Assembly (NCBI RefSeq): GCF_018350175.1
Contig: NC_058377.1
Coordinates: 57,536,001-57,600,000, forward strand
Direction: 5' to 3'
From: Felis catus
Lineage: Eukaryota
DNA length: 64,000 nucleotides
The notes beneath the pieces are model-generated. The model saw only the letters and a program-made list of their open reading frames with translations, had not been told where the DNA came from and did not search any database. The position numbers and the translations under genes were made by a program. Shown piece after piece: positions 1-42,369 of the stretch (its first letter is position 1; every line of letters starts with the position of its first letter).

Positions 1-68
1 TAGATGAAATAGACCAATTCCTTAAAAAACATAAACTACTATAATTCACCCATATGAAATAGATAATT

Positions 69-286
69 AAAAAAAATTTTTTTAACCTTTATTTATTTTT
101 TTGAGACAGAGAGAGACAGAGCATGAACGGGGGAGGGTCAGAGAGAGGGAGACACAGAATCCAAAGCAGTCTCCAGGCTCTGAGCTGTCAGCACAGAGCC
201 CGAAGCGGGGCTTGGACTCACAGACCGTGAGATCATGACCTGAACTGAAGTCGGACGCTCAACCAACTGAGCCACCCAGGCGCCCC
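69..286 (-). mobile_element. CAN-SINE (SINEC_Fc)
   Basis: tRNA-derived head, (CT)n tract and A tail; TSD TGAAATAGATAATT at 55-68 and 287-300. Confidence 0.95.
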
Positions 287-1196
287 TGAAATAGATAATT
301 TTAACAGACCTATAATTATTAATAAAATTGAATTTGTAATTTTAAAACTTCCCAAATCTCCGGACCCAGATGGTTTCACAGAGATTCTACCAAATGTTTA
401 AAAAAAGAATGAAGACAATCTACACAATCCCTTCCAGAAAACAGAAAAGGAAAAATACTTCACAATTCATTTTATGAATCTAGTATTACCCTAAACAAAA
501 CCAAAGAAGCACAAAAAGGGAAAACTTGAAACCAATATCTGTCATAAACTTAGATGCAAAAATCCTCAGCAAAATATTAGCAAACCAAATAGAATGATGT
601 ATAAAAAAAATTACTCACCATAACCAAGTGGGATTTATTCCAGCTATGCAAAGCTAGTCAACATCCAAAATTCAATCAATGATATCTACCACATTAACAG
701 GTTAAAGAAGAAAAAAGCCACAAGATAATGTATCATTGCAAAAAAAAAAAAAAGCTTTTAACAGGATTCAACACCCTTCATGATAAAAAATAAAATAAAA
801 ATAAAAAAAATAAACCTCTTAGGAAAACATGAATAGAGGGAAACTTCCTCAACTTAATAAAGACCATCTACAACAAGCCTACAACTAACCGTTTATTTAA
901 CAGTGAAAGATAAATGCTTTTCCCCCAAAACTGGAAAAAGGCAAGGAGATCTGTTCTTACTACTCTTATTCAAAGGCAAAACAAAGGCAAAACAAATCAA
1001 TTAAATGCATACCCATCAGAAAGGAAGAATATAGAACTGTCTATTTGCAGATGACAAAATTATCTACTTATCTACATAGAAAATCCTAAAGAATCTACCT
1101 ACAATTCCTAGGGTTAATAAGTGAGTCCAGCAAGGTATCTTGCAGGATGCAAAATAAACATACAAAACTCAATTGCATTTCTATATATTTGCAATG

Positions 1197-1361
1197 NNNN
1201 NNNNNNNNNNNNNNNNNNNNNNNNNNNNNNNNNNNNNNNNNNNNNNNNNNNNNNNNNNNNNNNNNNNNNNNNNNNNNNNNNNNNNNNNNNNNNNNNNNNN
1301 NNNNNNNNNNNNNNNNNNNNNNNNNNNNNNNNNNNNNNNNNNNNNNNNNNNNNNNNNNNNN
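1197..1361. other. Assembly gap (others at 2413-2556, 45680-45811, 50190-50360)
   Basis: Runs of N; all four fall inside L1, SINE or Tigger repeats. Confidence 0.99.
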
Positions 1362-1587
1362 CATTCATAGACTGGAAGACCCAATATAGCAAATATGGCA
1401 ATTCTTCCTGAATTGATATACACGTTCAATGCAATTCCATCAAGATTTTTCAGATATATACAAGGTTATTCTAAAGTTTATATGGAAATGCAAAAAACTA
1501 AAACAATTTAGAATAACTAAAACAATTTTGGAAAAAAGAAGAATAAAGTGGGAGGAATGAGAATATTTGATTTTAAAACTTATTATA

Positions 1588-1821
1588 GGGGCGCCTGGGT
1601 GGCGCAGTCGGTTAAGCGTCCGACTTCAGCCAGGTCACGATCTCGCGGTCTGTGGGTTCGAGCCCCGCGTCGGGCTCTGGGCTGACAGCTCAGAGCCTGG
1701 ACCCTGTTTCCGATTCTGTGTCTCCCTCTCTCTCTGCCCCTCCCCCGTTCATGCTCTGTCTCTCTCTGTCCCAAAAATAAACGTTGAAAAAAAAAATTTT
1801 TTTTAATAAAAAAAAATAAAA
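1588..1821 (+). mobile_element. CAN-SINE (young SINEC_Fc variant)
   Basis: Head GGGGCGCCTGGGTGGCGCAGTCGGTTAAGCG...; TSD AAAACTTATTATA at 1575-1587 and 1822-1834. Confidence 0.95.
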
Positions 1822-1963
1822 AAAACTTATTATATAGTTACAGCAATCAATAATATATGGTATTGGTGTGGGAAAAGACACATAGTTCAATTAGTGTGGG
1901 GATCAGTCATAGAATCCTGAAATCAGCCCATACAAATGTGCCCAACTCTTTTTTGTGGGTTTT

Positions 1964-2067
1964 GTTTTGTTTTGTTTTGGGTTTTTTTGCAATCTCTACA
2001 CCCAATGTGGGGCTCAAATTCATGACCCCAAGATCATGCTCTTCCAACTGAGCCAGCCAGGCGCCCC
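1964..2067 (-). mobile_element. Short old CAN-SINE
   Basis: Ends ...CTGAGCCAGCCAGGCGCCCC; flanked on both sides by TGTGGGTTTT. Confidence 0.75.
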
Positions 2068-2144
2068 TGTGGGTTTTTTTTTTTTTTTTAACATAAAACA
2101 GTCTTTAGTATAATGACTGAAATAAACAAAACATGATTAAAATA

Positions 2145-3740
2145 ATTTTTAAATTATTTATTTTTTAAATTCCACTATAGTTAACATAGAGTGTTATAGT
2201 AGTTTCAGATGTAAAATATAGTGATTCAACAATTCTATGCAATACTTGGTGCTCTTAGTCCCCTTGACCTTATTTCACACATCCTCCACCCCCAGCCCCA
2301 CCTCCCTTCTGGTAACTATCAGTTTGTTCTCTATAGTTACAAGCCTGCTTTTTGGTTTGTCTCTTTTTTTCCTCATTCATTTCTTCACTCATTCACTCCA
2401 CATATGAGTGAANNNNNNNNNNNNNNNNNNNNNNNNNNNNNNNNNNNNNNNNNNNNNNNNNNNNNNNNNNNNNNNNNNNNNNNNNNNNNNNNNNNNNNNN
2501 NNNNNNNNNNNNNNNNNNNNNNNNNNNNNNNNNNNNNNNNNNNNNNNNNNNNNNNNTCTTTGTCCATTCATCAATCAATGGACATCTGGGTTGCTTACAT
2601 ATCTTGGTTATTGTAAATTATGCTGTGATGAACGTAGGGGGGCATATATCTTTTCAAATTAGTATTTTCATTTTCTTTGGGTAAATACCAAGTAGTGGAA
2701 TTACTGGACCATATGGCAATTTTATTCTTAATTTTTTGATGAAACTCCATACTATTTTCCACAGTGGCTGCACCTGTTTGCATTCCCACCAACAGTGCAT
2801 GAGGGTTCCTTTTTCTTCACATCCTCACCAACACTTGTTGTTTCTTGTTTTTGATTTTAGACATTCTGACAGGTGTGAGGTGATACCTCATTGTTGTTTT
2901 GATTTGCACTTCCCTGCTGATGAGTGATATTGAGAATGTTTTCATGTGTGTGATGGCCATCTGGATGTGTCCTTTGGAAAAACTTCTGTTCATGTCGTCT
3001 GCCCACATTTAATTGGATTATTTGTGTTTTTTTTGGTGTTGAGTTGTATTAGTTCCTTATATATTTTGGATATTTACCCCTTATTAGATATATAATTTGC
3101 AATTATCTTCTCCCATTCAGTGGGTTGTCTTTTTGTTTTGTTGGTGGTTTCCTTCACTTTGCAGAAGCTTTTTATTTTGGTGTGGTCCCAATAGTTTATT
3201 TTCACTTTGGTTTCCCTTTCCAAAGGAGACATGTCTAGAAAAATGTTTCTACAGCTGATATCAAAGAGATTACTGTGTATTTTTTCTTCTAGGAATTTTA
3301 TGCTTTCAGGTCTCACATTTATGTCTTAAATATATTTTATTTTTGTGTATAGTGTAAGAAAGTGGTCCGGTTTCATTCTTTTGCATGTAAATGTCCGGTT
3401 TTCCCAATACCATCTGTTGAAGAAATTATCTTTTTCCCATTGCATATTCTTGCCTCCTTTGTCATAGATTAATTGACTATATAACCAAGGGTTTACTTCT
3501 GGGTTTCCAATTCTGTTCTGTTGATCCATGTGTCTAATTTTTTGTTTTTTTGCCATTACCATACTGTTTTGACTACTACAGCTTTGTAGTATATCTTGAA
3601 ATCTGGGATTGTGGTACCTCCAGTTTTTTTTTCTTTTTCAAGATTGTTTTGGCTATTTTGGCTTTTGTGGTTTCAAACAAATTTTAGTATTATTTGTTCT
3701 AGTTCTGTGAAAAATGTTATTGGTATTTGATAGGGATTTA
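2145..3740 (-). mobile_element. 5'-truncated carnivore-type L1 (ORF2 C-terminus plus 3' UTR) nested antisense in the older L1
   Basis: Minus-strand ORFs give ORF2 remnants (KIKSFCKVKETTNKTKRQPTEWEKIIANYISNKG; [15 protein letters not shown]). A-rich tail at ~2145-2170. Confidence 0.88.
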
Positions 3741-4483
3741 TGCCAACTGGTTTTTGACAAAGATGTAAGAGCAATAAATGTTGGAAACAGCCCTTTGAAC
3801 AAATGGTGCTGGAGCCTGGAATATCCATAGGCAAAACAAAATTTAAAAATAATGACCAAAGTTTCAAAACTTAGGAAAAACACAGGAGAAGGTGATCAGG
3901 ATCTAGAGGTAGGCAAAGATTAGACCAAAACCACAATCCATGAAGTGAAAAGTAGATAAATTGGACCTCATCACAATTACAACCATTTGCTCTTCAAAAG
4001 ACCTTATTAAGAGGATGAAAATATAAGCCATAGAGTGGGAGAAGCTATTTACAAACCATTTACAAATCAAAAAGGACTAGTATTTAGAATATATAAAGAA
4101 TTCTAAAAACTGAACAGTAAAAAAACACAATTAGGAAATAGGCAAAATACATGAACAGACATTTCATTGAAGAGGATATTCAAGTTGAAAATAAACACAT
4201 GTAAAGATGTTCATCATTAGCCATTAAGGAAATACAAATTAAAGTCACAAAAAAATACCACTATACACCCATCAGAATGTTTAAAATAAAAATAGTGACA
4301 ATGTCAAATGCTGGCAAGGATACAGAGAAATTAGATCACTCACAGATATATTGCTGGTGGGAATGTAAAATGGAACAACTAGTCTGGAAAGAAGTTTGGC
4401 AGTTTTTTGAAAAACTAAACATGCAAGTACATATGACAGCAATTTTACTCCTAGCCATTTATTCCAGATAAATGAAAACTTAT

Positions 4484-4485
<2 letters not shown>

Positions 4486-4523
<38 letters not shown>
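4486..4523. repeat. (AC)19 microsatellite
   Basis: Perfect dinucleotide run within L1. Confidence 0.95.
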
Positions 4524-4525
<2 letters not shown>

Positions 4526-5711
4526 GTACACAAATGTTTGTAGCAGTTTTATTCAGAATATCTGAAAACTGGAAATAACCTAGCCATTCTTCAACAGGGG
4601 AATGGATAAACAAATTGTGGTACATCCCTACCATGATATAATACTCATCAATAAAAGAAACGAACTATTGTTACATGCAACAACAATCAGAAAATTATGC
4701 TGAGAAAAAAAAGAGGAAATTCCAAAAATTTATACATTGTATCATTCCATTTATATAACACAGATTTGTGTTTCACAGGAGTTAAATAGTGCAGATAAAA
4801 AAGCAGATCATGAGGGATCCTTGTGGTGATGGAAATATTCTATATCCTGACTGTTCAATGTCAATAACCTAATTATGACATTGGCAAGGCATTACCATTG
4901 GGTAAAGGGTCCACAAGATCTCTCTGTATTACTCCTCACAACTGCATGTGAGTCTACAATTTTCTTAAAATAAAAAATTAAATATATATAAAAATATTAC
5001 CTTTGTGGTTTCTCTCTTGTCTGAACCCCAATTGATGCAATTCATCACACTGGGGAATTTCTCTTCTCTTCCTAGTTCACTCCAGTTTGCTGGGAGTTTT
5101 AGTCAGGGTATATGTTGATTTTTGCCAACTGCTTTTTTTGCATCTACTGAAAACAATTATATAGTTTTTCTCTTTTATGGTGAATTATACTGATTTTATA
5201 ACGTTAAACCAACCTTGCATTCCTGGGACACATTACTTTATCATGATGTAATAATCCCTTTATACATTGCTGGATTCAATTTGCTAATATTTGCTTGGGA
5301 TTTTAATGTCCATATTAGGAAATGTCTTTCAGATACCTAAGGGAGCAATGTTATTAGTTTCTAAAATTAAAAAGATACCTGGGAAAAAATAGTAAAATAT
5401 TAAAATTACACAAGGCTGGAGGGTGGTAAACAATAATTTGTTACATTATTGTCTACACTTTCCTGCTTTCTTATTTTTGTTTGTTTGTTTTTTTTCTTTT
5501 CTATTGAACAGTCCTTGGCTGCAGCTTGTAAGATAGATTCAGATGATAGATTGAGGACATAAAAACTGGGTTCTTTATGCTATTAGGAATGCAGGGACGG
5601 GATAGCCTTATGAATCCTGTTTATCTAGCAATGGGCCTAACAGCACATAGTTGCTACTCAGTAAAAGTTTATTGAAGGAGTCCAAGTTTATTTAAATGGC
5701 AATCCAATACA

Positions 5712-5769
5712 GGGGCATCTGGGTGGCTTAATTGGTTCAGCATCCGACTTCACTCAGGTCATGATCTCA

Positions 5770-5800
<31 letters not shown>

Positions 5801-6174
5801 AGTGTTTATTTATTTTTGAGAGAGAGAGAAAGAGTATGAGCAGGGGAGGGGCAGAGAGAGAGGGATACACGGAACCCGAAACAGGCTCCAGGCTCTGAGC
5901 TGTCAGCACAGAGCCTGATGCGGGGCTTGAACTCACGAACCATAAGATCATGGACTGAGCTGCAATCGGACACTTAACCGACTGAGCCACCCAGGCTCTC
6001 CATGATCTCACAGTTCTTCAGTTCAAGTGCCGTGTCGGGCTCTGAGCTGACAGCTCAGAGCCTGGAGCCTGCTTCGGATTCTGTGTCTCCCTCTCTCTCT
6101 CTGCCCCTCACCCGCTCATGCTCTCTCTCTCTCAAAAATAAACATTTTAAAAAAATAATAAATAAAATAAATAA
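5712..6174 (+). mobile_element. CAN-SINE (outer element, interrupted at 5778-6000)
   Basis: Head 5712-5777, body resumes at 6019; TSD CAATCCAATACA at 5700-5711 and 6175-6186. Confidence 0.92.
5778..6000 (-). mobile_element. CAN-SINE nested antisense inside another CAN-SINE
   Basis: TSD CATGATCTCACAGTTCTT at 5760-5777 and 6001-6018. Confidence 0.95.
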
Positions 6175-6189
6175 CAATCCAATACAACA

Positions 6190-6610
6190 TAATGGATGCT
6201 GTGGTCCAGACCCACTCTCAGGATCTAGCCAGTCATTTCCTCAGCTTCTGGAAGTAGGCTGCTTATGGTTCATAATTCTTCTCTGGGAATTGCCTTCCAC
6301 AGAAGGAATGAAACTTGCCAAAAGTTACAGATAGCCTCTATCACTGGTCAATGATAGGATATAAACTACTGGCCCCTGTTCTTTAATTTGGAACAACTCT
6401 TAAAGGTCATCCTAGGCTCAGAGTATTTTTTGAGGTTGGCTGAGGCCTCTAAAGCGATTGTTTCAGTTTTTCTCCCTCTGCTATCCTGCTTCCATCACTC
6501 TCTCGCAGGCGGGGTCTTGACAGTAATCCCCACCTCCTCCCCGCCATAAAATTTCTGCACGTTCACCTGCTTTTCAGAGTCTCTTCATCGGGCATCTCCA
6601 CCCAGGACAC
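6190..6610 (+). mobile_element. ERVL-type solo LTR (LTR16C-like)
   Basis: Colinear with the LTR16 consensus as recalled (GGATGCTGTGG...GGGAATTGCC...TATAAA...ACAACTCT...GGCTGAGGCCT...TTCTCCCTCTG...GACA). Confidence 0.7.
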
Positions 6611-6879
6611 ACACTAGCCTATTTTATATTTTTTTCCTAGCACTTATCAATGTGTGAAATAACCTTGTTTATTCGATGCTTTAATACTTGCTTATTTAAG
6701 ACTGTAAATCAGGCAACTCCACCCAGGACAGACTTTTTTCCCCATACACTGTGCACCACTGTATCAGGCGCCTAGAGCAGGGCCTACAGAACACAAGCAG
6801 ACCCTAAATACTGGTTGTTGAAATAAATGAATGGAAGAAACACACCTGATGCTGGGTCTTGGGCTCACAATCTCTCTAG

Positions 6880-7600
6880 AGCTAGCGGAGCGGCAGCCGG
6901 GGAGGGGCCCCGAGTCCCCGCCCCTCCTGGCACGCCCCCCCCTTCCCCGCCCGCCGGCCTAGACAGGGGGCGGGACCTCGCAGAAGGAGCCGCTGACGCG
7001 ATGTTGCAGCCCGTGGTACGGCTGGTGCGGCTAAATCGGCTGCCCTACGCCGAGCTGCTGGCCCTGCAGGAGCGCTGGTTGCGACGGCTGCAGGCCGAAC
7101 CAGGCAGTGAGGCCCTGTCGGCGGCTGAGGCGGGCGCGCTCCTGCTCTGCGAGCCCGCGGGGCCCGTATACACATCTGGGCTGCGTGGCGGCCTGACTCC
7201 GGAGGAAACGGCGCGGCTGCGGGCCTTGGGCGCCGAGGTACGCGCCACAGGCCGCGGTGGCCTGGCCACTTTCCATGGGCCGGGCCAGCTGCTCTGCCAC
7301 TCGGTGCTAGATCTGCGACGCCTGGGCCTGCGCCTGCGCACCCACGTGGCTGCGCTGGAGTCGTGCGCGGTGCGCGTGTGCGAGCTCCTGGGCTTGCATG
7401 GAGCCCGCGCGCGGCCCCCACCCTACACCGGCGTCTGGCTGGGGGAGCGCAAAGTCTGCGCGATCGGTTAGTGCTATGGGCTAGGGCGGGGCTGGGGGCG
7501 GGGCTTGGCAGAACTGGGCCAATGGAGGTGAGGGCAAGCGCGGGCTGGGAGGAAGTGGATCTGGCGCGGGCTTTAATAAATCAAAATTGCCCGCTGCGTT
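6880..7600. promoter_or_regulatory. LIPT2 CpG-island promoter with Sp1-type GC boxes
   Basis: Sharp rise in GC and CpG content. CCCCGCCCC at 6916-6924, CCCCGCCC at 6945-6952, GGGCGGG at 6968-6974, all just upstream of the ATG. No proximal TATA box. Confidence 0.85.
7001..7466 (+). CDS. LIPT2: Lipoyl(octanoyl)transferase 2, coding exon 1 (aa 1-155 plus first base of Gly156)
   Basis: ATG at 7001 gives [11 protein letters not shown]...; LipB-family motifs PVYTx[18 protein letters not shown] and RKVCAIG. Phase-1 donor ATCG|GTTAGT at 7466/7467. Lies in a CpG island. Confidence 0.97.
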
Positions 7601-8002
7601 TGAGTTTTTAAGCCTTCTCACGGATCTCATTTTCGCAGCTCTCAGGAGGGCCTTCAATGGTCATTTCCAATATTCATCTTTTTGAGAAGTGAATTGCCAT
7701 GTTACTTCCAATGAATCACAATGTCTGGACAATAATGAAGCTTAGTAGTTTTCAAACTTTTTTTTTAAACAACTTACTCTGTTAAAAGACATTTTCTGGA
7801 ATTTCCATAATTGCAGCAGCTGTGGAGCCACACACTCCTCTCCAGCTTTGTCCCCCTCCCCCGATCTGTGCACAACCCCTTGAATGCTCAAAAACAAAGC
7901 TGGAAAACCAGTGATCCAGTCCAGTTCCTTCATTGTACCGAGGGGGACCTTGAAACCCAGGGAGGAAAGATCTACTCTGAGACCCTTTGGCTTGTCTTGC
8001 AG

Positions 8003-34027: not shown

Positions 34028-34327
34028 ATGGAGACCACCAACGGGACTGAGACTTGGTACAAAAGCCTGCACGCTGTGCTGAAGGCTCTAAATGCCACTA
34101 TTCACAGCAACCTGCTCTGCCGGCCAGGGCCAGACAACCTGACAGAGAAGCGGCGGGCCAGCCTACCTGGCCGTGATGACAACTCCTACATGTACATTCT
34201 CTTTGTCATGTTTCTATTTGCTGTCACTGTGGGCAGCCTCATCCTGGGATATACCCGCTCCCGTAAAGTGGACAAGCGCAGTGACCCCTATCACGTGTAC
34301 ATCAAGAACCGTGTGTCTATGATCTGA
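34028..34327 (+). CDS. KCNE3: Potassium voltage-gated channel subfamily E regulatory subunit 3 (MiRP2), 99 aa
   Basis: METTNGTETWY...RDDNSYMYILFVMFLFAVTVGSLILGYTRSRKVDKRSDPYHVYIKNRVSMI. Single TM helix with the TVG triplet, KCNE signature RSRK...SDPYHVYI, and sequons N5, N22, N37. Kozak context GCTATGG. Acceptor CCAACAG| at 33987 lies 40 nt before the ATG. Confidence 0.98.
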   Translation: METTNGTETWYKSLHAVLKALNATIHSNLLCRPGPDNLTEKRRASLPGRDDNSYMYILFVMFLFAVTVGSLILGYTRSRKVDKRSDPYHVYIKNRVSMI

Positions 34328-35830: not shown

Positions 35831-35842
35831 AATAAAAATAAA
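35831..35842 (+). terminator. Probable KCNE3 polyadenylation signal (tandem AATAAA AATAAA)
   Basis: Two back-to-back hexamers followed by GT/T-rich TGCTTGTGTGTTTCTT; implies a ~1.5-kb 3' UTR. Another AATAAA occurs at 34647-34652. Confidence 0.6.
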
Positions 35843-36165: not shown

Positions 36166-38564
36166 TAGCTTTCCTTAGCTCTTCTTGAAGGAGAAGGTAG
36201 AGACCTATTTAAGAAGATTTGACATATGGGAAGAAAACGATTCAGAAGTCTACAGTTGAATGAGACTTTAGAGAGCACCCAGTCCAAAGTCCCAAATAGG
36301 AAATGGAATCAAGAATAGGAATGAATGGTCAGGCTAGAAGGGTTTTAAGAAATGAGATTGGGTAGATTTTGAGGAGTCAGACAAAGGTAGAATTTGAACT
36401 GGGTTTTGAAAAGATAGGACTGATCTAAGTGGGCACAGCAAAAGAAGAAAACAAACCAAGGGAAGCTTGAGGGTAGAAATGTGGTGAAACCACACGCCTA
36501 AAGAGAGTGGTTGGCTGGGAAATTGGGCAGGAAGCAGACCCAGTGTGGCAACTCTGGGACTTCAGTGTCCCTAACCATGGTAGTGGCTCTCCTTCACAGA
36601 GTCCTTATGCTTACAGGATTAAATAATAGAATAATATGAATTCTTTTGCTTGCAAGTTGCAGAAACCCAGTGTATATTAGCATTAACAGGAAAGAGGATT
36701 TGTTGAAGGGAGCATGGAGCAGTCAGTCACAAGTTCAAAAGAAGAGCTACTCCTGAGTAGCACCAGGGCAACTCCTGAGCACCAGGGCAGCTCCTGAGCC
36801 TAGAACTACTTATTTGCCTGAATTCACAAAGTAAGGGCTCTATATACCTCGTTACTACCCTCCCCACCCTCCAGCTCTACCCCACCCCAAATGTTTGCGA
36901 GTTAAGTGGCAATACCCTCTCAGCACATAGGATTTTTTATCGGCACCGGTTCTGCCCTCTGCTGACCAGATCCCAGAACATCACCTTGAGCCCTCAAAGC
37001 AAAACTTCAACAATCCCTCATTCGCCAGACATTTACTGAGGGCCCACTACGTGCCAAGCACTCATCTAGGCACTCTTGGAATACATAAGTAAAAAAGATC
37101 AAAGAAACCCCTGTTCTAACACTTAAGAGCATTTATTATATGTCAGGTAGTGGTCTAAGCATTGTATATACATTAACTCATTCAGCTTGTAATACCCATA
37201 TAACAACGCTTATTAGTAGGTGTTCCTTATAATTACTTCAGTAGAGCCCACTAGTTCTTCATCTGACTGCTGTACCACATTCAATCCAACTTTGGCACCA
37301 TGGTACACCCAACCCAGGGTGTGGATCTGAATTGTCCCTTGAAATGAATGGGAAAGTGATCTGGGGAAATGGTAGCAGGGCACTGACACTGATAGGTTGA
37401 GGTTGGGTTCCCTAGAAGCAGAATTTGAGACAGGCATTTATTGATGGGGCACTTTTCAGGAAAAACCTTCAAGGGAGAGAAGGAAGTAGATAGGAAAGGG
37501 AAAGAACCAAAATGTGTTCTCATGTCCCTAGCATAATCCTCAGGGAACTGTTCTACATGGCAGGGGCACAAACCACACAGCAGGATTACACCCCCTTGAG
37601 GCAAGGGGGATGGCTCTTTATGCCCCTATATAGTCAGTCATTGGTTGTGGACCACCCTGGTTGGGAGGGGGGACAAGAGGAAGGTTGTAAGGAGGATCTC
37701 ATCAACGGAGGGCAATTCTCTGGAGACAGGTGATGGCTGCTAGAGGGGGTACTTAATCTCGGAGGGGCACTTGACAAGAGCTTAGTAACATGACCACCAC
37801 TGGCTCCAAGGCAAGTAGGCAAATGAGGTTCCTGCCTGGGCAGCGATGTCCTAACCAAATCTCTATTACTGTGGAAGGGAAGAATGGATTTCAGTGGACA
37901 GCTAGTGGTCTTCACCCTACCCTCCTCACTCTTTCCCCCAGGACTGGCCATGAAAGAAAAATGTACAGCCTTGTCAAGAAGAAAGAAGTGCTGTTACTCT
38001 GATTTGGTCTTGTTTTTGGGGGTGTGTGGGGGTTGGAACCTTGTAGGTATAACTAAGCCTGTCCTGGCAGTGTGACTTTTACTCATTTTTTTCCCCTGGT
38101 ATTGGTGAATCTTGTCTCATCTCTCTTTGTAATGGCAATATCCGAGATGTTGGTTTAAGCATAAGGGAAATAGACAAAGCAAGGCTTTCAGCCTGTTTCA
38201 GGTGCCACTAAGAAACCAAGAATATGATCTGCCTAGATGAAATCAGAGGACCCATCCGTGGCAGTGGTTAAACACTGACAGAGAATGAGCTCCTGGGGAG
38301 CAGGAGAGTCAGAAATTAGTGACCAGGAAAAAGTGAAGAAAAACTAGTTTTTGATGTGCAGCCAATCTCTGCTAAGCACTGTGCTGAGAATTTGCATGTT
38401 ACCTATTTCACCTTCCCAAAATCTCTTAACTTTTTTAAATCCTCATTTAATAGATGAGGAAACAGAAGCTCAGAGGTGAAATAGCTTCTTTAACATTCAC
38501 TTAATGCGTGAGGCTGTCTAGATTTTAACACTGACTTGCCTGCATTCAAAGCCCATGTTGTCTC

Positions 38565-39406
38565 TGATGTGGGAAACAATGGCAGAAGAAAAAAAAAATT
38601 AAATTTCCTGACAACTTAACAGCCCATTGACAAGTCCTTGGGACAGGCAGAGTGACCTTCCTCTAGGAGCTCAGCTGCCTCGATGATGACACTTTGCTAA
38701 GGGCAAAGGCAATCAACATTATCCCAAGCTCCAGGATCCTGTAAGTCTACTTAAACAAATAAAAATTGCTTTGGAGGGGCACCTGAGTGGCTCAGTCGGT
38801 TAAGCGTCCAGCTTCAGCTCAGGTCATGAACTCATGGTTTTTGAGTTCGAGCCCCTCGTCAGACTCTGTGCTGACAGCTCAGAGCCTGGAGCCTGCTTTG
38901 GGTTCTGTGTCTGCCTCTCTCTCTGCCCCTCCCCCGCTCATGCTCTGTCTCTCTCTCTCTCTGTCTCAAAAATAAATAAACATTAAACATTTTTTATTAA
39001 AAATAAATAAATAAATAAAAATTGCTTTGGAAACTTCCTTTATCTCTACCCCGCAAGATATATGTTGACAATCATACTCCAAGCTTACAGCCCCCTGATA
39101 TACATGTGAAGGGTCTCATGACTGAGTTTTTACTAAACAATAACAAATGATCTCTTCTTAACAGCAGCTAGCCCTTCAAGGTCCTGGAAACCTTGTTTCC
39201 AAAATTCCTTAGAGGCTTACTCTATCCCTAAAACCCTCTCCCAACTTGAAAGTATATAATCAGCCACCCATCACAACCCCAGTGCAGCTCTTTCTGCCCA
39301 GGGGTCCTGTCCCCATGCTTTAATAAAACCACCTTTTTGCACCAAAGATGTCTCAAGAATTCTTTCTTGGCCATTGGCTCTAACTCCAACACCTCAAACC
39401 ACATCA
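38565..39406 (+). mobile_element. Solo ERV LTR (ERV1-like, probably carnivore-specific), inserted in a MIR
   Basis: Perfect 8-bp inverted termini TGATGTGG...CCACATCA; 4-bp TSD TCTC/TCCC with one mismatch; TATATAA at 39253-39259 and AATAAA at 39322-39327. Flanks rejoin as a MIR. Confidence 0.85.
38776..39012 (+). mobile_element. CAN-SINE inserted in the solo LTR
   Basis: TSD AAATAAAAATTGCTTTGGA at 38757-38775 and 39013-39031. Confidence 0.95.
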
Positions 39407-39431
39407 TCCCCACCATAGCTGGCTCCTTTGA

Positions 39432-39770
39432 GAGTCACATTAGATCCTTTCTTGAATGTAAACCCTTCTAATCTCCCAGCAGACTGTGGCCGGCCTCTCT
39501 GTTCCACCTTCAGGGATCAAAGAGAGCAATCACAATCTCATCCCTGCCCAGCTTCTTCCATCCTCAATCAAGATGCCTTAAAGAGAAGAGAGGACATTGT
39601 CATGATTCTATGGGAATAACAAGCCAATTGGGACGGCTCTCGAGTGAGGGTCCCTGAGTCCCCACAACATTGACTCCAGACACTGGGGACAAGGGGAACA
39701 GAGACACCAGCCACAGAATCCGCTGGGAGATTAGAAGGAGTTAATCTCAAGAAAGCATCTAATGTGAATC
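39432..39770. repeat. Imperfect inverted repeat / fold-back of unknown origin
   Basis: 39435-39510 is ~80% identical by eye to the reverse complement of 39691-39767, including an exact CCTTCTAATCTCCCAGC core. Further inner stems are present. Confidence 0.9.
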
Positions 39771-40462
39771 ATTGCTGCATCTCCCTTAGTCAGAGACAGG
39801 ATGGGATTATTTAAGTACATCTGAAAAGAGCTCTGTGGGACAAATGCAGGCTGACAGTTCTGCTTTTGGTTTATTATGTATTCATTCATTCAACAAATAT
39901 TTATTAGGTACTTAGTTGTAGGTAAAGTGTTTGGGACTAAGAGAACAGCAACAAATAAGGTAGGCATGGTCCCTGCCTTCATGGGGGCAAAGATTAGCTC
40001 ACCACTTCAGGTTTTCTACCTATAAAAACATTCTATTTCTATGAAGTTTTACTTTGAACCCATCTCTGCCCCTCCCTAACATAGACTGAGGCTACTTTCA
40101 CCCATCTTACTGCCCGGTTTATGATTCTCTGATCATTTTTACCACGTTGTACTCTTTTGGCACGTCTTTTTCCCTCCAAGAAACAATGCAAAGGTGCAGA
40201 CAGGGACCATGTCTAATGTATCTCTATGCCCCATCAACTAGGATAAAGCCTGGCACAAAGTAGATGCTTAATAAATATTAGAATGGATTAACATTATTAT
40301 GAGTATTGTGCTACATAACCTCTCACATGTATATGTACTACCAATCTTTCAAACTATTTCTCTCTCCATTATCTCATTTGGTTTAGAGAATTTTGTTCAG
40401 TGGTTTCAATTGAAAGTGAATATGAGAGCACTTTGTAAAATGCTCTCATAAAGGGTGAAGCA

Positions 40463-40668
40463 GGGCATCTGGGTGACTCAGTCAGCTGAGTGTCTGACTC
40501 TTGATTTGGGCTCAGGGTATGGTCTTACGGTTCGTGGGTTCGAGCCCTGCATCAGGCTCTGACAGTGCAGAGCCTGCTTGGGATTCTCTCTCTGCCCCTC
40601 CCCCAACCCTCTCGCACGAGCACGCGGGCACGCTCTCTCAAAAATAAATAAACATTAAAAAAAAAACT
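40463..40668 (+). mobile_element. CAN-SINE (older)
   Basis: Flanked by GGTGAAGCA repeats. Confidence 0.88.
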
Positions 40669-40884
40669 TTAGCGGTGAAGCATTGTTGTTGAGCTCTCTT
40701 GCTAGCCCTTAGGCTGGGATAATTTAGGTGACGTACTTAAGGTCATGTAGGAGTGTATGCTAGAATCTGTCTCCTGATTTTCATTTCTGGACTTTTCCTT
40801 CCTGCATCAAGGGGAAACTGACAAAAAGAGAGGAACAAAGTACTCAGGAAGCCCATGAATGTGAATGCAAACTCCCACGAGTGG

Positions 40885-41270
40885 ATTCAGGGTTCTGTGC
40901 CCAGATCTTTCACATCACCCAGCTGCTGGGAATGTGAGCTGCTCCCGGCTCCCAGCCGCATCTCTGTGTGTTGTCCTGGACCACAGATGACTATTTCACC
41001 ACCCCTCCTGGAGGTGACTCACAACCAATGACAGACTGATGCAGGGATATATAAAGTTCTGGTTCCGTGGCATCAGTTTGGGACAATTCAGCTGCCACCT
41101 CAACTCCAGACCTCCTCGTTAGGATCAGATGAGGCTTCAGTTGCAACCACTGTGTGAGTTAGCTTCTCCCTCTGTCTACTCCTGTGTCCTCACTTACTGA
41201 GGTACCTGCCCCCCAAAACCTGCATGCCACTCTCTATCTCAGTCTGGTTCTAAGGGAATCTTTCCCTGGA
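40885..41270 (+). mobile_element. ERVL-type LTR (LTR16-like)
   Basis: CCCAGCTGCTGGGA...CCAATGAC...TATATAAA...GGGACAATTC...GCTTCTCCCTCTG, the same architecture as 6190-6610. Confidence 0.65.
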
Positions 41271-41931
41271 GATAGAAATGACAGAGGAATGAGAGGACAG
41301 AATATAGATGGGGGCAGTTAGTGGTTCTAACAAAACCAAAAAGAAGATGGGACAGTGATCAGTTCTTTGAATAAGAACTAGAGAACTTGAGAAAAGAGCG
41401 TTATGGTCATTGAATAAGAACTAGCCACTAGAGGGCCCAGCACTACAGGTCTAGAGCTCTGCTGCTAAGTTAGAAGCAAAATTCTCATTTTGCCCTTCAC
41501 TTGGCAGATGCCCACCATAATTATGTGCACTATGTGCACTAAGTGGCCGAACAGTTCCTGTCCTTTTACCTCGTCCATGAACATCAGTGCCCTAGCCTGT
41601 TCTAATACCGTTACCAAGCCCTCTGTTCCATTACATATAAACGTACTCCTATAAATCAAGGCTTCGAAAGCCTGTGTTTTTTCCACCCACTGCTCATTGG
41701 TTCTCAAGGGGTTCAGAAGATCTGAAATGTAGAATTCCAAATGGTTGGTTTGGAAAATTCTCACCCACAAATTGGGAGAATCAGCAACATATTCTCTCTA
41801 GTATTGTCCTTTCCCTACCTCCTCTGCTTCCCCAGTTTGGAGTAAAGATAAGACCTGCAAGGTTAGATGTGAAATATAGTGGCCAAGGGAGAAACAGGTT
41901 ACAAGAGACTTCACAGAAGACGAAAAAGTTT

Positions 41932-42369
41932 GAGGCACCTGGGCGGCTCAGGAGGTCAAGCGTCCGATTCTTGATTTCGACTCAGGTCATGACATCACGA
42001 TTCATGAGATGGAGCTCTGCATTGGGCTCTGCGCTGACAACATGGAGCCTACTTGGGATTCTCTCTCTCCCTTTCTCTCTGCCCCTCCCCTGCTTGTGCA
42101 CGCATACTCTCTCTCTCCCAAAATAAATAGATAAAAAATTTTTAAAAAAAGAAAAAAGAAAAAGAGGGGCACCTGGGTGGCTCAGTTGGTTAAGAATCCC
42201 ACTTCAGCTCAGGTCATGATCTCGTGGTTCGTGGGTTCAAGCTCTGTCTGGAGCCTGCTTCAGATTTTGTGTCTCCCTCTTTCTCTGCCCCTTCCCTGCT
42301 CATGCTCTGTCTCTCTCTCTCTCTCTCAAAAATAAACATTAAAAAAATGGTTTTTAACTTAAAAAAAAA
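41932..42369 (+). mobile_element. Two tandem CAN-SINEs (second, from 42166, inserted in the A tail of the first)
   Basis: Outer TSD GAAAAAG(T/C)TTGAG brackets both elements. Confidence 0.88.

What the first reader, a model, noticed from the sequence alone, without database searches (positions are those of the whole stretch)
39432..39770. Unexplained ~340-bp branched fold-back with a flush three-way junction
Seen: the left arm TCACATTAGATCCTTTCTTGA...CCTTCTAATCTCCCAGC...TCTCTGTTCCACCTT (39435-39510) pairs with 39691-39767 over ~75 bp at ~80% by eye. At the inner end of that stem two more helices start with almost no spacer: GTCCCCA/TGGGGAC (39658-39664 with 39684-39690) and CAGGGATC/GGTCCCTG (39511-39518 with 39649-39656, one G-U). 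Pairing continues inward with GAGAGC/GCTCTC (39522-39527 with 39636-39641), TCACAAT/ATTGGGA and TCCC/GGGA. I do not recognise it as a SINE, LINE, LTR or known MITE, and I see no TA or 8-bp TSD. Inference: an uncatalogued long-TIR transposon fossil, an old local inverted duplication, or a selected structured RNA or cruciform element.
Basis: partly seen in the sequence, partly recalled or inferred. Interest (0 to 1): 0.7.

Follow-up and report, generated by a model that had tools for sequence, protein, structure and literature searches.

The report
Old backward-copy scar downstream of KCNE3
About 80 bases of non-coding DNA downstream of the KCNE3 gene in a cat-family genome are repeated backwards 180 bases further on, likely the leftover of an old DNA-copying slip, and nothing found here shows that the hairpin it would form is transcribed or used.

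Summary
The inverted repeat is real: 39432-39510 pairs with 39691-39770 (81 columns, 82.7%; folding z about -10.6). It lies about 3.6 kb past the likely KCNE3 poly(A) signal, and own-genome searches found no other copy. The three-way junction is weak as a structure: probability at most 0.19, and the 180-nt interior folds no better than shuffles. It reads better as history: the symmetry continues about 26 bp inward behind a 34-nt hairpin present in one arm only. Once a solo LTR beside the left arm is skipped, the symmetry also resumes outward in register, into the tail of a neighbouring MIR (p 0.002-0.01, post hoc). A transposon's terminal repeat should not contain host MIR sequence. There is no TSD and no Rfam match; 0 of 12.9 million RNA reads fell on it, and arm divergence (10%) fits neutral decay. 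A 1.6-Mb sample of the genome held one comparable 326-bp fold-back, made from an old dispersed repeat. Best reading (0.65): an old local inverted duplication by template switching, decaying neutrally. A low-copy transposon or a selected RNA is not excluded, because orthologues and Dfam could not be checked.

The parts
39432..39510 (+). Core left arm (79 bp)
   Evidence: BLAST self-match, 81 columns, 82.7%; alignment
39691..39770 (-). Core right arm (80 bp), inverted counterpart of the left arm
   Evidence: base-pair probabilities 0.98-1.0 for the two outer helices tested
39511..39536 (+). Inner continuation of the left arm (about 26 bp), decayed
   Evidence: 21 matches with 2 gaps to 39627-39656; anchored test 4 of 2000 shuffles; unanchored tests p 0.08-0.17
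39627..39656 (-). Inner continuation of the right arm
39657..39690 (.).
   Evidence: alignment gap; stem probability 0.98 on RNA +, 0.49 on RNA -
39537..39626 (.). Central spacer (about 90 nt), no significant symmetry or structure
38549..38564 (+). Putative outermost left block, in the MIR tail, cut off from the rest of the arm by the LTR
   Evidence: 13 of 16 match to 39793-39808 in register once the LTR is skipped; p 0.002-0.01; post hoc
39793..39808 (-). Putative outermost right block
   Evidence: (pair I14)
39411..39431 (+). 21-nt block between the LTR and the core arm; first part continues the MIR; does not pair with 39771-39792
   Evidence: inverted match p 0.89, direct match p 0.03-0.05, micro-inversion model 19 of 150 null runs as good: unexplained
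38370..38564 (+). MIR-type SINE (name recalled), interrupted at its tail by the LTR and resuming to about 39421
   Evidence: profile built from genome copies hits at E 7e-13; score 38.2 rises to 40.3 bits across the empty site
38565..39406 (+). Solo LTR with a 4-bp target duplication (3 of 4 bases kept; ERV1-type by recall), ending 25 bp before the core left arm
   Evidence: 3697 candidates, alignments end near 39406; 5' end at 38565 in 14 of 19 copies
38776..39007 (+). Carnivore tRNA-derived SINE (name recalled) inserted in the LTR, with a 24-nt flanking direct repeat
   Evidence: repeat family D14
34028..34327 (+). KCNE3 coding exon (context); likely poly(A) signal AATAAA at 35831-35836
   Evidence: Pfam ISK_Channel; PDB KCNE3 E 1e-59; sequence

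Best explanation
This is a single-copy inverted repeat in intergenic DNA 3' of KCNE3, likely made when a replicating or repairing polymerase briefly switched template and copied about 80-140 bases of neighbouring DNA backwards, and likely decaying without function since. Shown: the two arms, the lack of detectable copies elsewhere, the MIR and solo LTR next to the left arm. Inferred: (1) the copied stretch ran from the MIR tail (38549) to about 39536, so the left arm is the original and the right arm the copy; (2) the LTR then inserted into the outer end of the left arm; (3) a 34-nt hairpin was later lost from the left arm (or gained by the right), which produces the apparent three-way junction; (4) point changes and small indels accumulated independently in both arms.
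For: Only self-matches in the 2.43-Gb genome for three overlapping queries (1 candidate each), against 255 candidates for an old MITE copy. No nhmmer hit below E 0.6 in 1.91 Mb, against 17 hits at E<=0.01 for that MITE and 5 for the neighbouring MIR. Four pattern searches gave 57 other loci, none extending beyond its seed. No TSD. In-register 13-of-16 match in the MIR tail across the LTR site: 7-38 of 4000 random controls as good, depending on scoring; best without skipping the LTR is 9 of 16. Arm mismatch 8 of 77 (10.4%, 95% interval 4.6-19.4%) matches the 10-14% between this LTR and its 19 best copies (P 0.40), so no selection is needed; 2 of the 4 transitions are CpG decay and 4 transversions plus 4 indels break pairing on both strands. 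A comparable 326-bp fold-back, made by inverted copying of part of an old dispersed repeat, turned up in 1.6 Mb (L208). Template switches of type 3-2-1-4/1-4-3-2 create such repeats and made up 31% of high-confidence human-chimp events (PMC5453318, passages).
Against: No outgroup sequence was available, so the pre-event state is not shown. The copy is long for the class: median 12 nt, maximum 128 in the ape gold-standard set (PMC7954356 section 8). The model needs extra events for the 21-nt block that does not pair (micro-inversion test inconclusive) and for the 34-nt indel. The outward and inward extensions were found post hoc; unanchored versions are not significant (p 0.08-0.21). The genome search is weak for very old repeats (3 candidates for a MIR). 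All 4 transitions would give G-U pairs on a minus-strand RNA (two-sided p 0.125, my arithmetic).
Confidence: 0.65

Rival explanations
1. Fossil of an old, low-copy non-autonomous DNA transposon with long imperfect terminal inverted repeats, possibly already in Dfam.
For: About 340 bp with long outer repeats and weaker inner symmetry is the usual MITE shape (recalled). The search is insensitive to very old repeats, and only 1.91 Mb of 2.43 Gb was scanned with nhmmer, so a family of up to some hundreds or a few thousand old copies could be missed.
Against: No copy in any search; no TSD; the symmetry appears to include host MIR sequence; arms are too alike for the age of the control MITE, whose copies are 71-83% identical in most rows (P 0.0002 at an assumed 28% mismatch, 0.02 at 20%).
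Confidence: 0.17
2. An older, longer palindrome whose 79-bp core was re-homogenised later by arm-to-arm conversion or quasi-palindrome correction; still neutral.
For: Identity is uneven along the arm: about 81% (16 bp), no match (21 bp), 90% (core), about 80% with gaps (inner). Conversion of near-perfect into perfect inverted repeats is the classic template-switch outcome (PMC5453318 passages).
Against: Core divergence already fits the age of the LTR without conversion; the blocks are too short to show rate differences.
Confidence: 0.1
3. A structured RNA or cruciform kept by selection, for example a long dsRNA stem in KCNE3 read-through or antisense RNA that is edited or diced.
For: Very stable predicted stem; all 4 transitions keep G-U pairs on the minus strand; contigs over the element in 2 of 3 RNA-library runs laid, one at depth 47.7 over 39743-39850; flush junction geometry is rare by chance.
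Against: 0 of 12.9 million single-cell RNA reads on 39414-39850, no A>G or other listed difference inside the element, other contigs at depth 2-3 and may be DNA; no Rfam match; interior not structured; longest perfect helix 17 bp; 8 of 12 differences break pairing on both strands.
Confidence: 0.08

Closest known systems
Short-range template-switch mutation, four-point type 3-2-1-4 / 1-4-3-2 (Loytynoja and Goldman 2017, PMC5453318; Walker et al. 2021, PMC7954356)
   Same: [quoted passage not shown]
Mammalian MITEs / non-autonomous DNA transposons such as the MER5 group (names recalled)
   Same: Size of a few hundred bases, terminal inverted repeats, strong fold-back.
   Different: No dispersed copies where a control MITE gave 255 candidates, no TSD, and arms that seem to include host MIR sequence.
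Long inverted repeats (LIRs) linked to deletions (criteria of Wang and Leung as quoted in PMC4319165: stem >30 bp, identity >85%, spacer <2 kb)
   Same: Stem of 79-80 bp and spacer of 180 bp fit.
   Different: Identity is borderline (82.7% with gaps, 89.6% over paired columns); no instability was shown here.

Membership tests
Template-switch inverted duplication (3-2-1-4 / 1-4-3-2) | Reverse-complement copy of a nearby stretch, tens to hundreds of bases away | tested here: met
   spacer 180 nt
Template-switch inverted duplication (3-2-1-4 / 1-4-3-2) | Copied sequence is local host DNA, not a mobile unit | tested here: inconclusive
   no other copy and post hoc extension into a MIR tail, p 0.002-0.01; search weak for old repeats
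Template-switch inverted duplication (3-2-1-4 / 1-4-3-2) | An outgroup shows the pre-event state with one arm only | not testable with these tools
   no mammalian relatives held; the only other-organism contig was identical over 163 nt
Template-switch inverted duplication (3-2-1-4 / 1-4-3-2) | Copied length within the described range (maximum 128 nt) | tested here: inconclusive
   79 bp core is inside, about 140 bp extended arm is just outside
MITE / non-autonomous DNA transposon | Dispersed copies in the genome | tested here: not met
   positive control; low copy number not excluded
MITE / non-autonomous DNA transposon | Target-site duplication at the ends | tested here: not met
   no exact 4-12 nt direct repeat at 182 boundary pairs; no TA at the BLAST ends by eye; an old TSD may have decayed
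MITE / non-autonomous DNA transposon | Terminal inverted repeats | tested here: met
   in form only
MITE / non-autonomous DNA transposon | Match to a Dfam or Repbase consensus | not testable with these tools
   no repeat library among the tools
Structured ncRNA / pre-miRNA / hairpin endo-siRNA locus | Match to a known RNA family | tested here: not met
   cmscan of 37000-42000 to E 5: 2 weak hits, neither on the element
Structured ncRNA / pre-miRNA / hairpin endo-siRNA locus | Transcribed and processed or edited | tested here: inconclusive
   0 of 12.9 million raw reads (about 1% of one single-cell run); low-depth contigs without a DNA control
Structured ncRNA / pre-miRNA / hairpin endo-siRNA locus | Defined, stable inner architecture (the three-way junction) | tested here: not met
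   junction probability 0.002-0.19; interior z about 0
Structured ncRNA / pre-miRNA / hairpin endo-siRNA locus | Covariation across species | not testable with these tools
   no orthologues obtained
Recombinogenic long inverted repeat (Wang and Leung criteria) | Stem >30 bp, identity >85%, spacer <2 kb | tested here: inconclusive
   stem and spacer met; identity 82.7% with gaps, 89.6% without

The most novel reading that the evidence does not exclude
A copying scar that was kept and put to use: an 80-bp double-stranded stem with a branched interior in KCNE3 read-through or antisense RNA, conserved across carnivores or mammals, or else the remnant of an uncatalogued low-copy fold-back transposon.
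Probability: 0.1. Interest if true: 0.6.

Novelty: new member of a known kind. Interest (0 to 1): 0.15.

Why it matters
If the best reading holds, it matters little: it is one more, fairly long and old, example of a known mutation process that creates stable hairpins and even junction-like folds without selection. It is a useful caution that a folding z-score of -10 in mammalian DNA is no sign of function (an unrelated fold-back in a random stretch scored -24). Its small extra value is that an LTR inside one arm gives an internal clock. It would matter more if orthologues showed covariation or tissue RNA showed editing, which would give KCNE3 an unreported downstream RNA element.

Tried and rejected
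Rfam: nothing on the element. Own-genome DNA searches with the whole element, the interior and the right arm with flank: self only. Pattern searches: 33, 6, 10 and 16 places; the excess over the reversed-pattern control (33 against 2) did not hold up, since none of 57 other loci extended beyond its seed. Paired-arm pattern in metagenome contigs: 2 loci, both the lowest-scoring; arm motif in viral contigs: 0. The element as part of the neighbouring ERV: rejected, LTR homology ends near 39406. A nested hAT-like unit bounded by CAGGGATC...GGTCCCTG: no flanking duplication by eye, no copies. Coding: no ATG-started frame of 80 codons or more over it. Flanking direct repeat as a decayed TSD: p 0.08-0.17. 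Micro-inversion of the 21-nt block: 19 of 150 null runs as good. No poly(A) signal, G4 or i-motif pattern in 39411-39860. X16 holds 0.91 of the words yet showed no contig on the element, so holes are not informative. A sequence-only covariance model could not be run on this genome. Literature: 12 papers name both KCNE3 and PGM2L1, none about this element by their listing; the 10 listed of 147 do not mention KCNE3; searches gave nothing closer. No supplement was opened; genome-wide tables of conserved RNA structures or template-switch events could bear on the human orthologue.

Full report
Setting. The window is from a 2.43-Gb genome in 71 contigs with cat-type SINEs (names recalled); one RNA run that holds the stretch is labelled a feline metagenome. 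KCNE3 is at 34028-34327 on +, with a likely poly(A) signal at 35831. The element starts about 3.6 kb further on, in DNA rich in old repeats. A lipoyl-transferase-type gene (LIPT2 by recall) lies near 7000. PGM2L1 was not checked.

The observation. The outer stem is real: 39432-39510 against 39691-39770, 81 columns at 82.7%, E 2.7e-14; 69 matches, 8 substitutions, 4 indels; z -10.7 and -10.5 with 0 of 100 shuffles as good. The junction, however, is not the favoured fold: probability 0.19 on RNA +, 0.003 on RNA -, 0.02 and 0.002 as DNA. The 180-nt interior folds like its dinucleotide shuffles (z -0.35, -0.01), so the whole signal comes from the outer stem. The flush arrangement of two 7-bp helices is rare (1 of 3000 base shuffles, 3 of 3000 genomic 180-mers; 66 and 158 of 3000 at 5 bp), with the caveat that the pattern was defined after seeing it.

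What the junction is. Aligned as sequence, the left arm continues inward (39511-39536) and matches 39627-39656 at 21 positions with 2 gaps once a 34-nt segment of the right arm (39657-39690) is skipped. Anchored at the end of the core arm this scored as well in 4 of 2000 base shuffles; unanchored versions gave p 0.17, 0.084 and 0.083. The skipped segment is the one closed by the 7-bp stem. So the junction is likely an indel between two copies. Loss of a hairpin by slippage across its base is the obvious cause (general knowledge; one search gave no paper I read), but gain on the right cannot be excluded.

Copies. Three DNA searches of the own genome returned one candidate each, the element itself. 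Controls: an old palindromic MITE copy (MER5-like by recall) gave 255 candidates, the solo LTR 3697, but the MIR next door only 3, so very old families are poorly seen. Four pattern searches in the genome and one in metagenomes gave 57 other loci; none extended beyond its seed. nhmmer over 1.91 Mb of fetched DNA gave no hit below E 0.6 for the element or its interior, against 17 and 5 hits at E<=0.01 for the MITE and MIR controls. A high-copy family is excluded; a low-copy old one is not. No TSD of 4-12 nt was found at 182 boundary pairs.

Flanks. A solo LTR spans 38565-39406 with a 4-bp target duplication, 3 of 4 bases kept, and itself carries a SINE. It sits in the tail of a MIR: a profile built from genome copies matches 38370-38563 and runs about 11 nt further across the empty site (38.2 to 40.3 bits). 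With the LTR skipped, 38549-38564 pairs with 39793-39808 at 13 of 16, one base off register; with no fixed length, 7 to 38 of 4000 random controls did as well; without skipping, the best is 9 of 16. A gapped extension was not significant (p 0.21), and the 21 nt in between do not pair (p 0.89); they resemble the right side in direct orientation (p 0.03-0.05), but a micro-inversion model was matched by 19 of 150 null runs. The profile finds no independent MIR on the right. If the 16-bp block is real, the repeat predates the LTR, includes host MIR sequence, and was copied from left to right, which a transposon end would not explain.

Age and selection. Arm mismatch is 10.4% (interval 4.6-19.4%, K2P 0.11). 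This LTR differs from its 19 best-scoring copies by 10-14% (biased low by the choice of best hits), and 8 of 77 is unremarkable at that level (P 0.40) or at 15% (0.17), but low at 20% (0.02) or 28% (0.0002). The arms were therefore last identical at about the time of the LTR, tens of millions of years ago on recalled rates. Two of the 4 transitions are CpG decay, a third may be; 4 transversions and 4 indels break pairing on both strands. All 4 transitions would be G-U on a minus-strand RNA, which is not significant with four events.

Expression. Twenty runs hold the stretch or part of it, 5 on record as RNA. Four were laid: 0 of 12.9 million raw single-cell reads (about 1% of the run) fell on 39414-39850; one run gave a 243-nt contig at depth 2.3 and a 151-nt contig at depth 47.7 from 39743; one run of another organism label gave 163 identical bases at depth 3.2; one gave none. 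No difference was listed inside the element. Contigs cannot show transcription and no DNA control was laid. Rfam has nothing on it.

How unusual. In 160 stretches of 10 kb (evenly spaced picks, 6 of them beside the window) 43 close inverted repeats scored 50 bits or more and 25 scored 75 or more; 38 of the 43 were pairs of high-copy repeats, 4 were simple repeats, and 1 was neither. That one, L208:5130-5455, is a 326-bp fold-back with z -24 whose right part continues as an old dispersed repeat (L1-like by recall) and whose left arm is an inverted copy of it. One in 1.6 Mb suggests roughly 1500 per genome, with a Poisson range of about 40 to 8000 (my arithmetic). Earlier unchecked notes from this scan describe similar scars in the same genome; they are leads, not support.

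Comparison. [quoted passage not shown] Copied lengths in the ape set had median 12 and maximum 128 (PMC7954356, passages and the first part of section 8), so this one is long. Micro-inversions flanked by short inverted repeats are described (PMC8755829, passages). The recombinogenic-LIR criteria quoted in PMC4319165 (passages) are met for length and spacer and borderline for identity.

Verdict. A real, uncommon but ordinary inverted duplication, most likely neutral (0.65; 0.75 with later homogenisation). Low-copy transposon 0.17, selected structure 0.08. New member of a known kind; interest 0.15. An orthologue alignment and a Dfam search would settle it.

Noticed in passing
L208:5130-5455 (G000:C13:95005130-95005455): A 326-bp fold-back with a nearly perfect outer stem of about 75 bp (z -24 as RNA), made by inverted copying of part of an old dispersed repeat (L1-like by recall); a stronger hairpin than the finding itself.
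   Followed up: partly
window 38370-39421: Three nested insertions in order of age: MIR, solo LTR in its tail, SINE in the LTR, with target duplications still visible for the last two.
   Followed up: yes
window 39743-39850, run X18: One 151-nt contig at depth 47.7 in an RNA library, twenty times the depth of the neighbouring contig; may be duplicates of one molecule.
   Followed up: no
window 5714-6100: A SINE interrupted after about 60 bases by a second SINE in the opposite orientation, which gives a short inverted repeat (5719-5775 with 5937-5994).
   Followed up: partly
G000:C16 54.49-55.06 Mb: The five best relatives of the control MITE copy L099:7520-7710 cluster within 0.6 Mb on the same contig, 25 Mb away, which hints at local duplications in a gene cluster.
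   Followed up: no
window 34028-34327: KCNE3 here is 99 aa against 103 in the solved human-length chains, a 4-residue difference.
   Followed up: no
   Followed up: no
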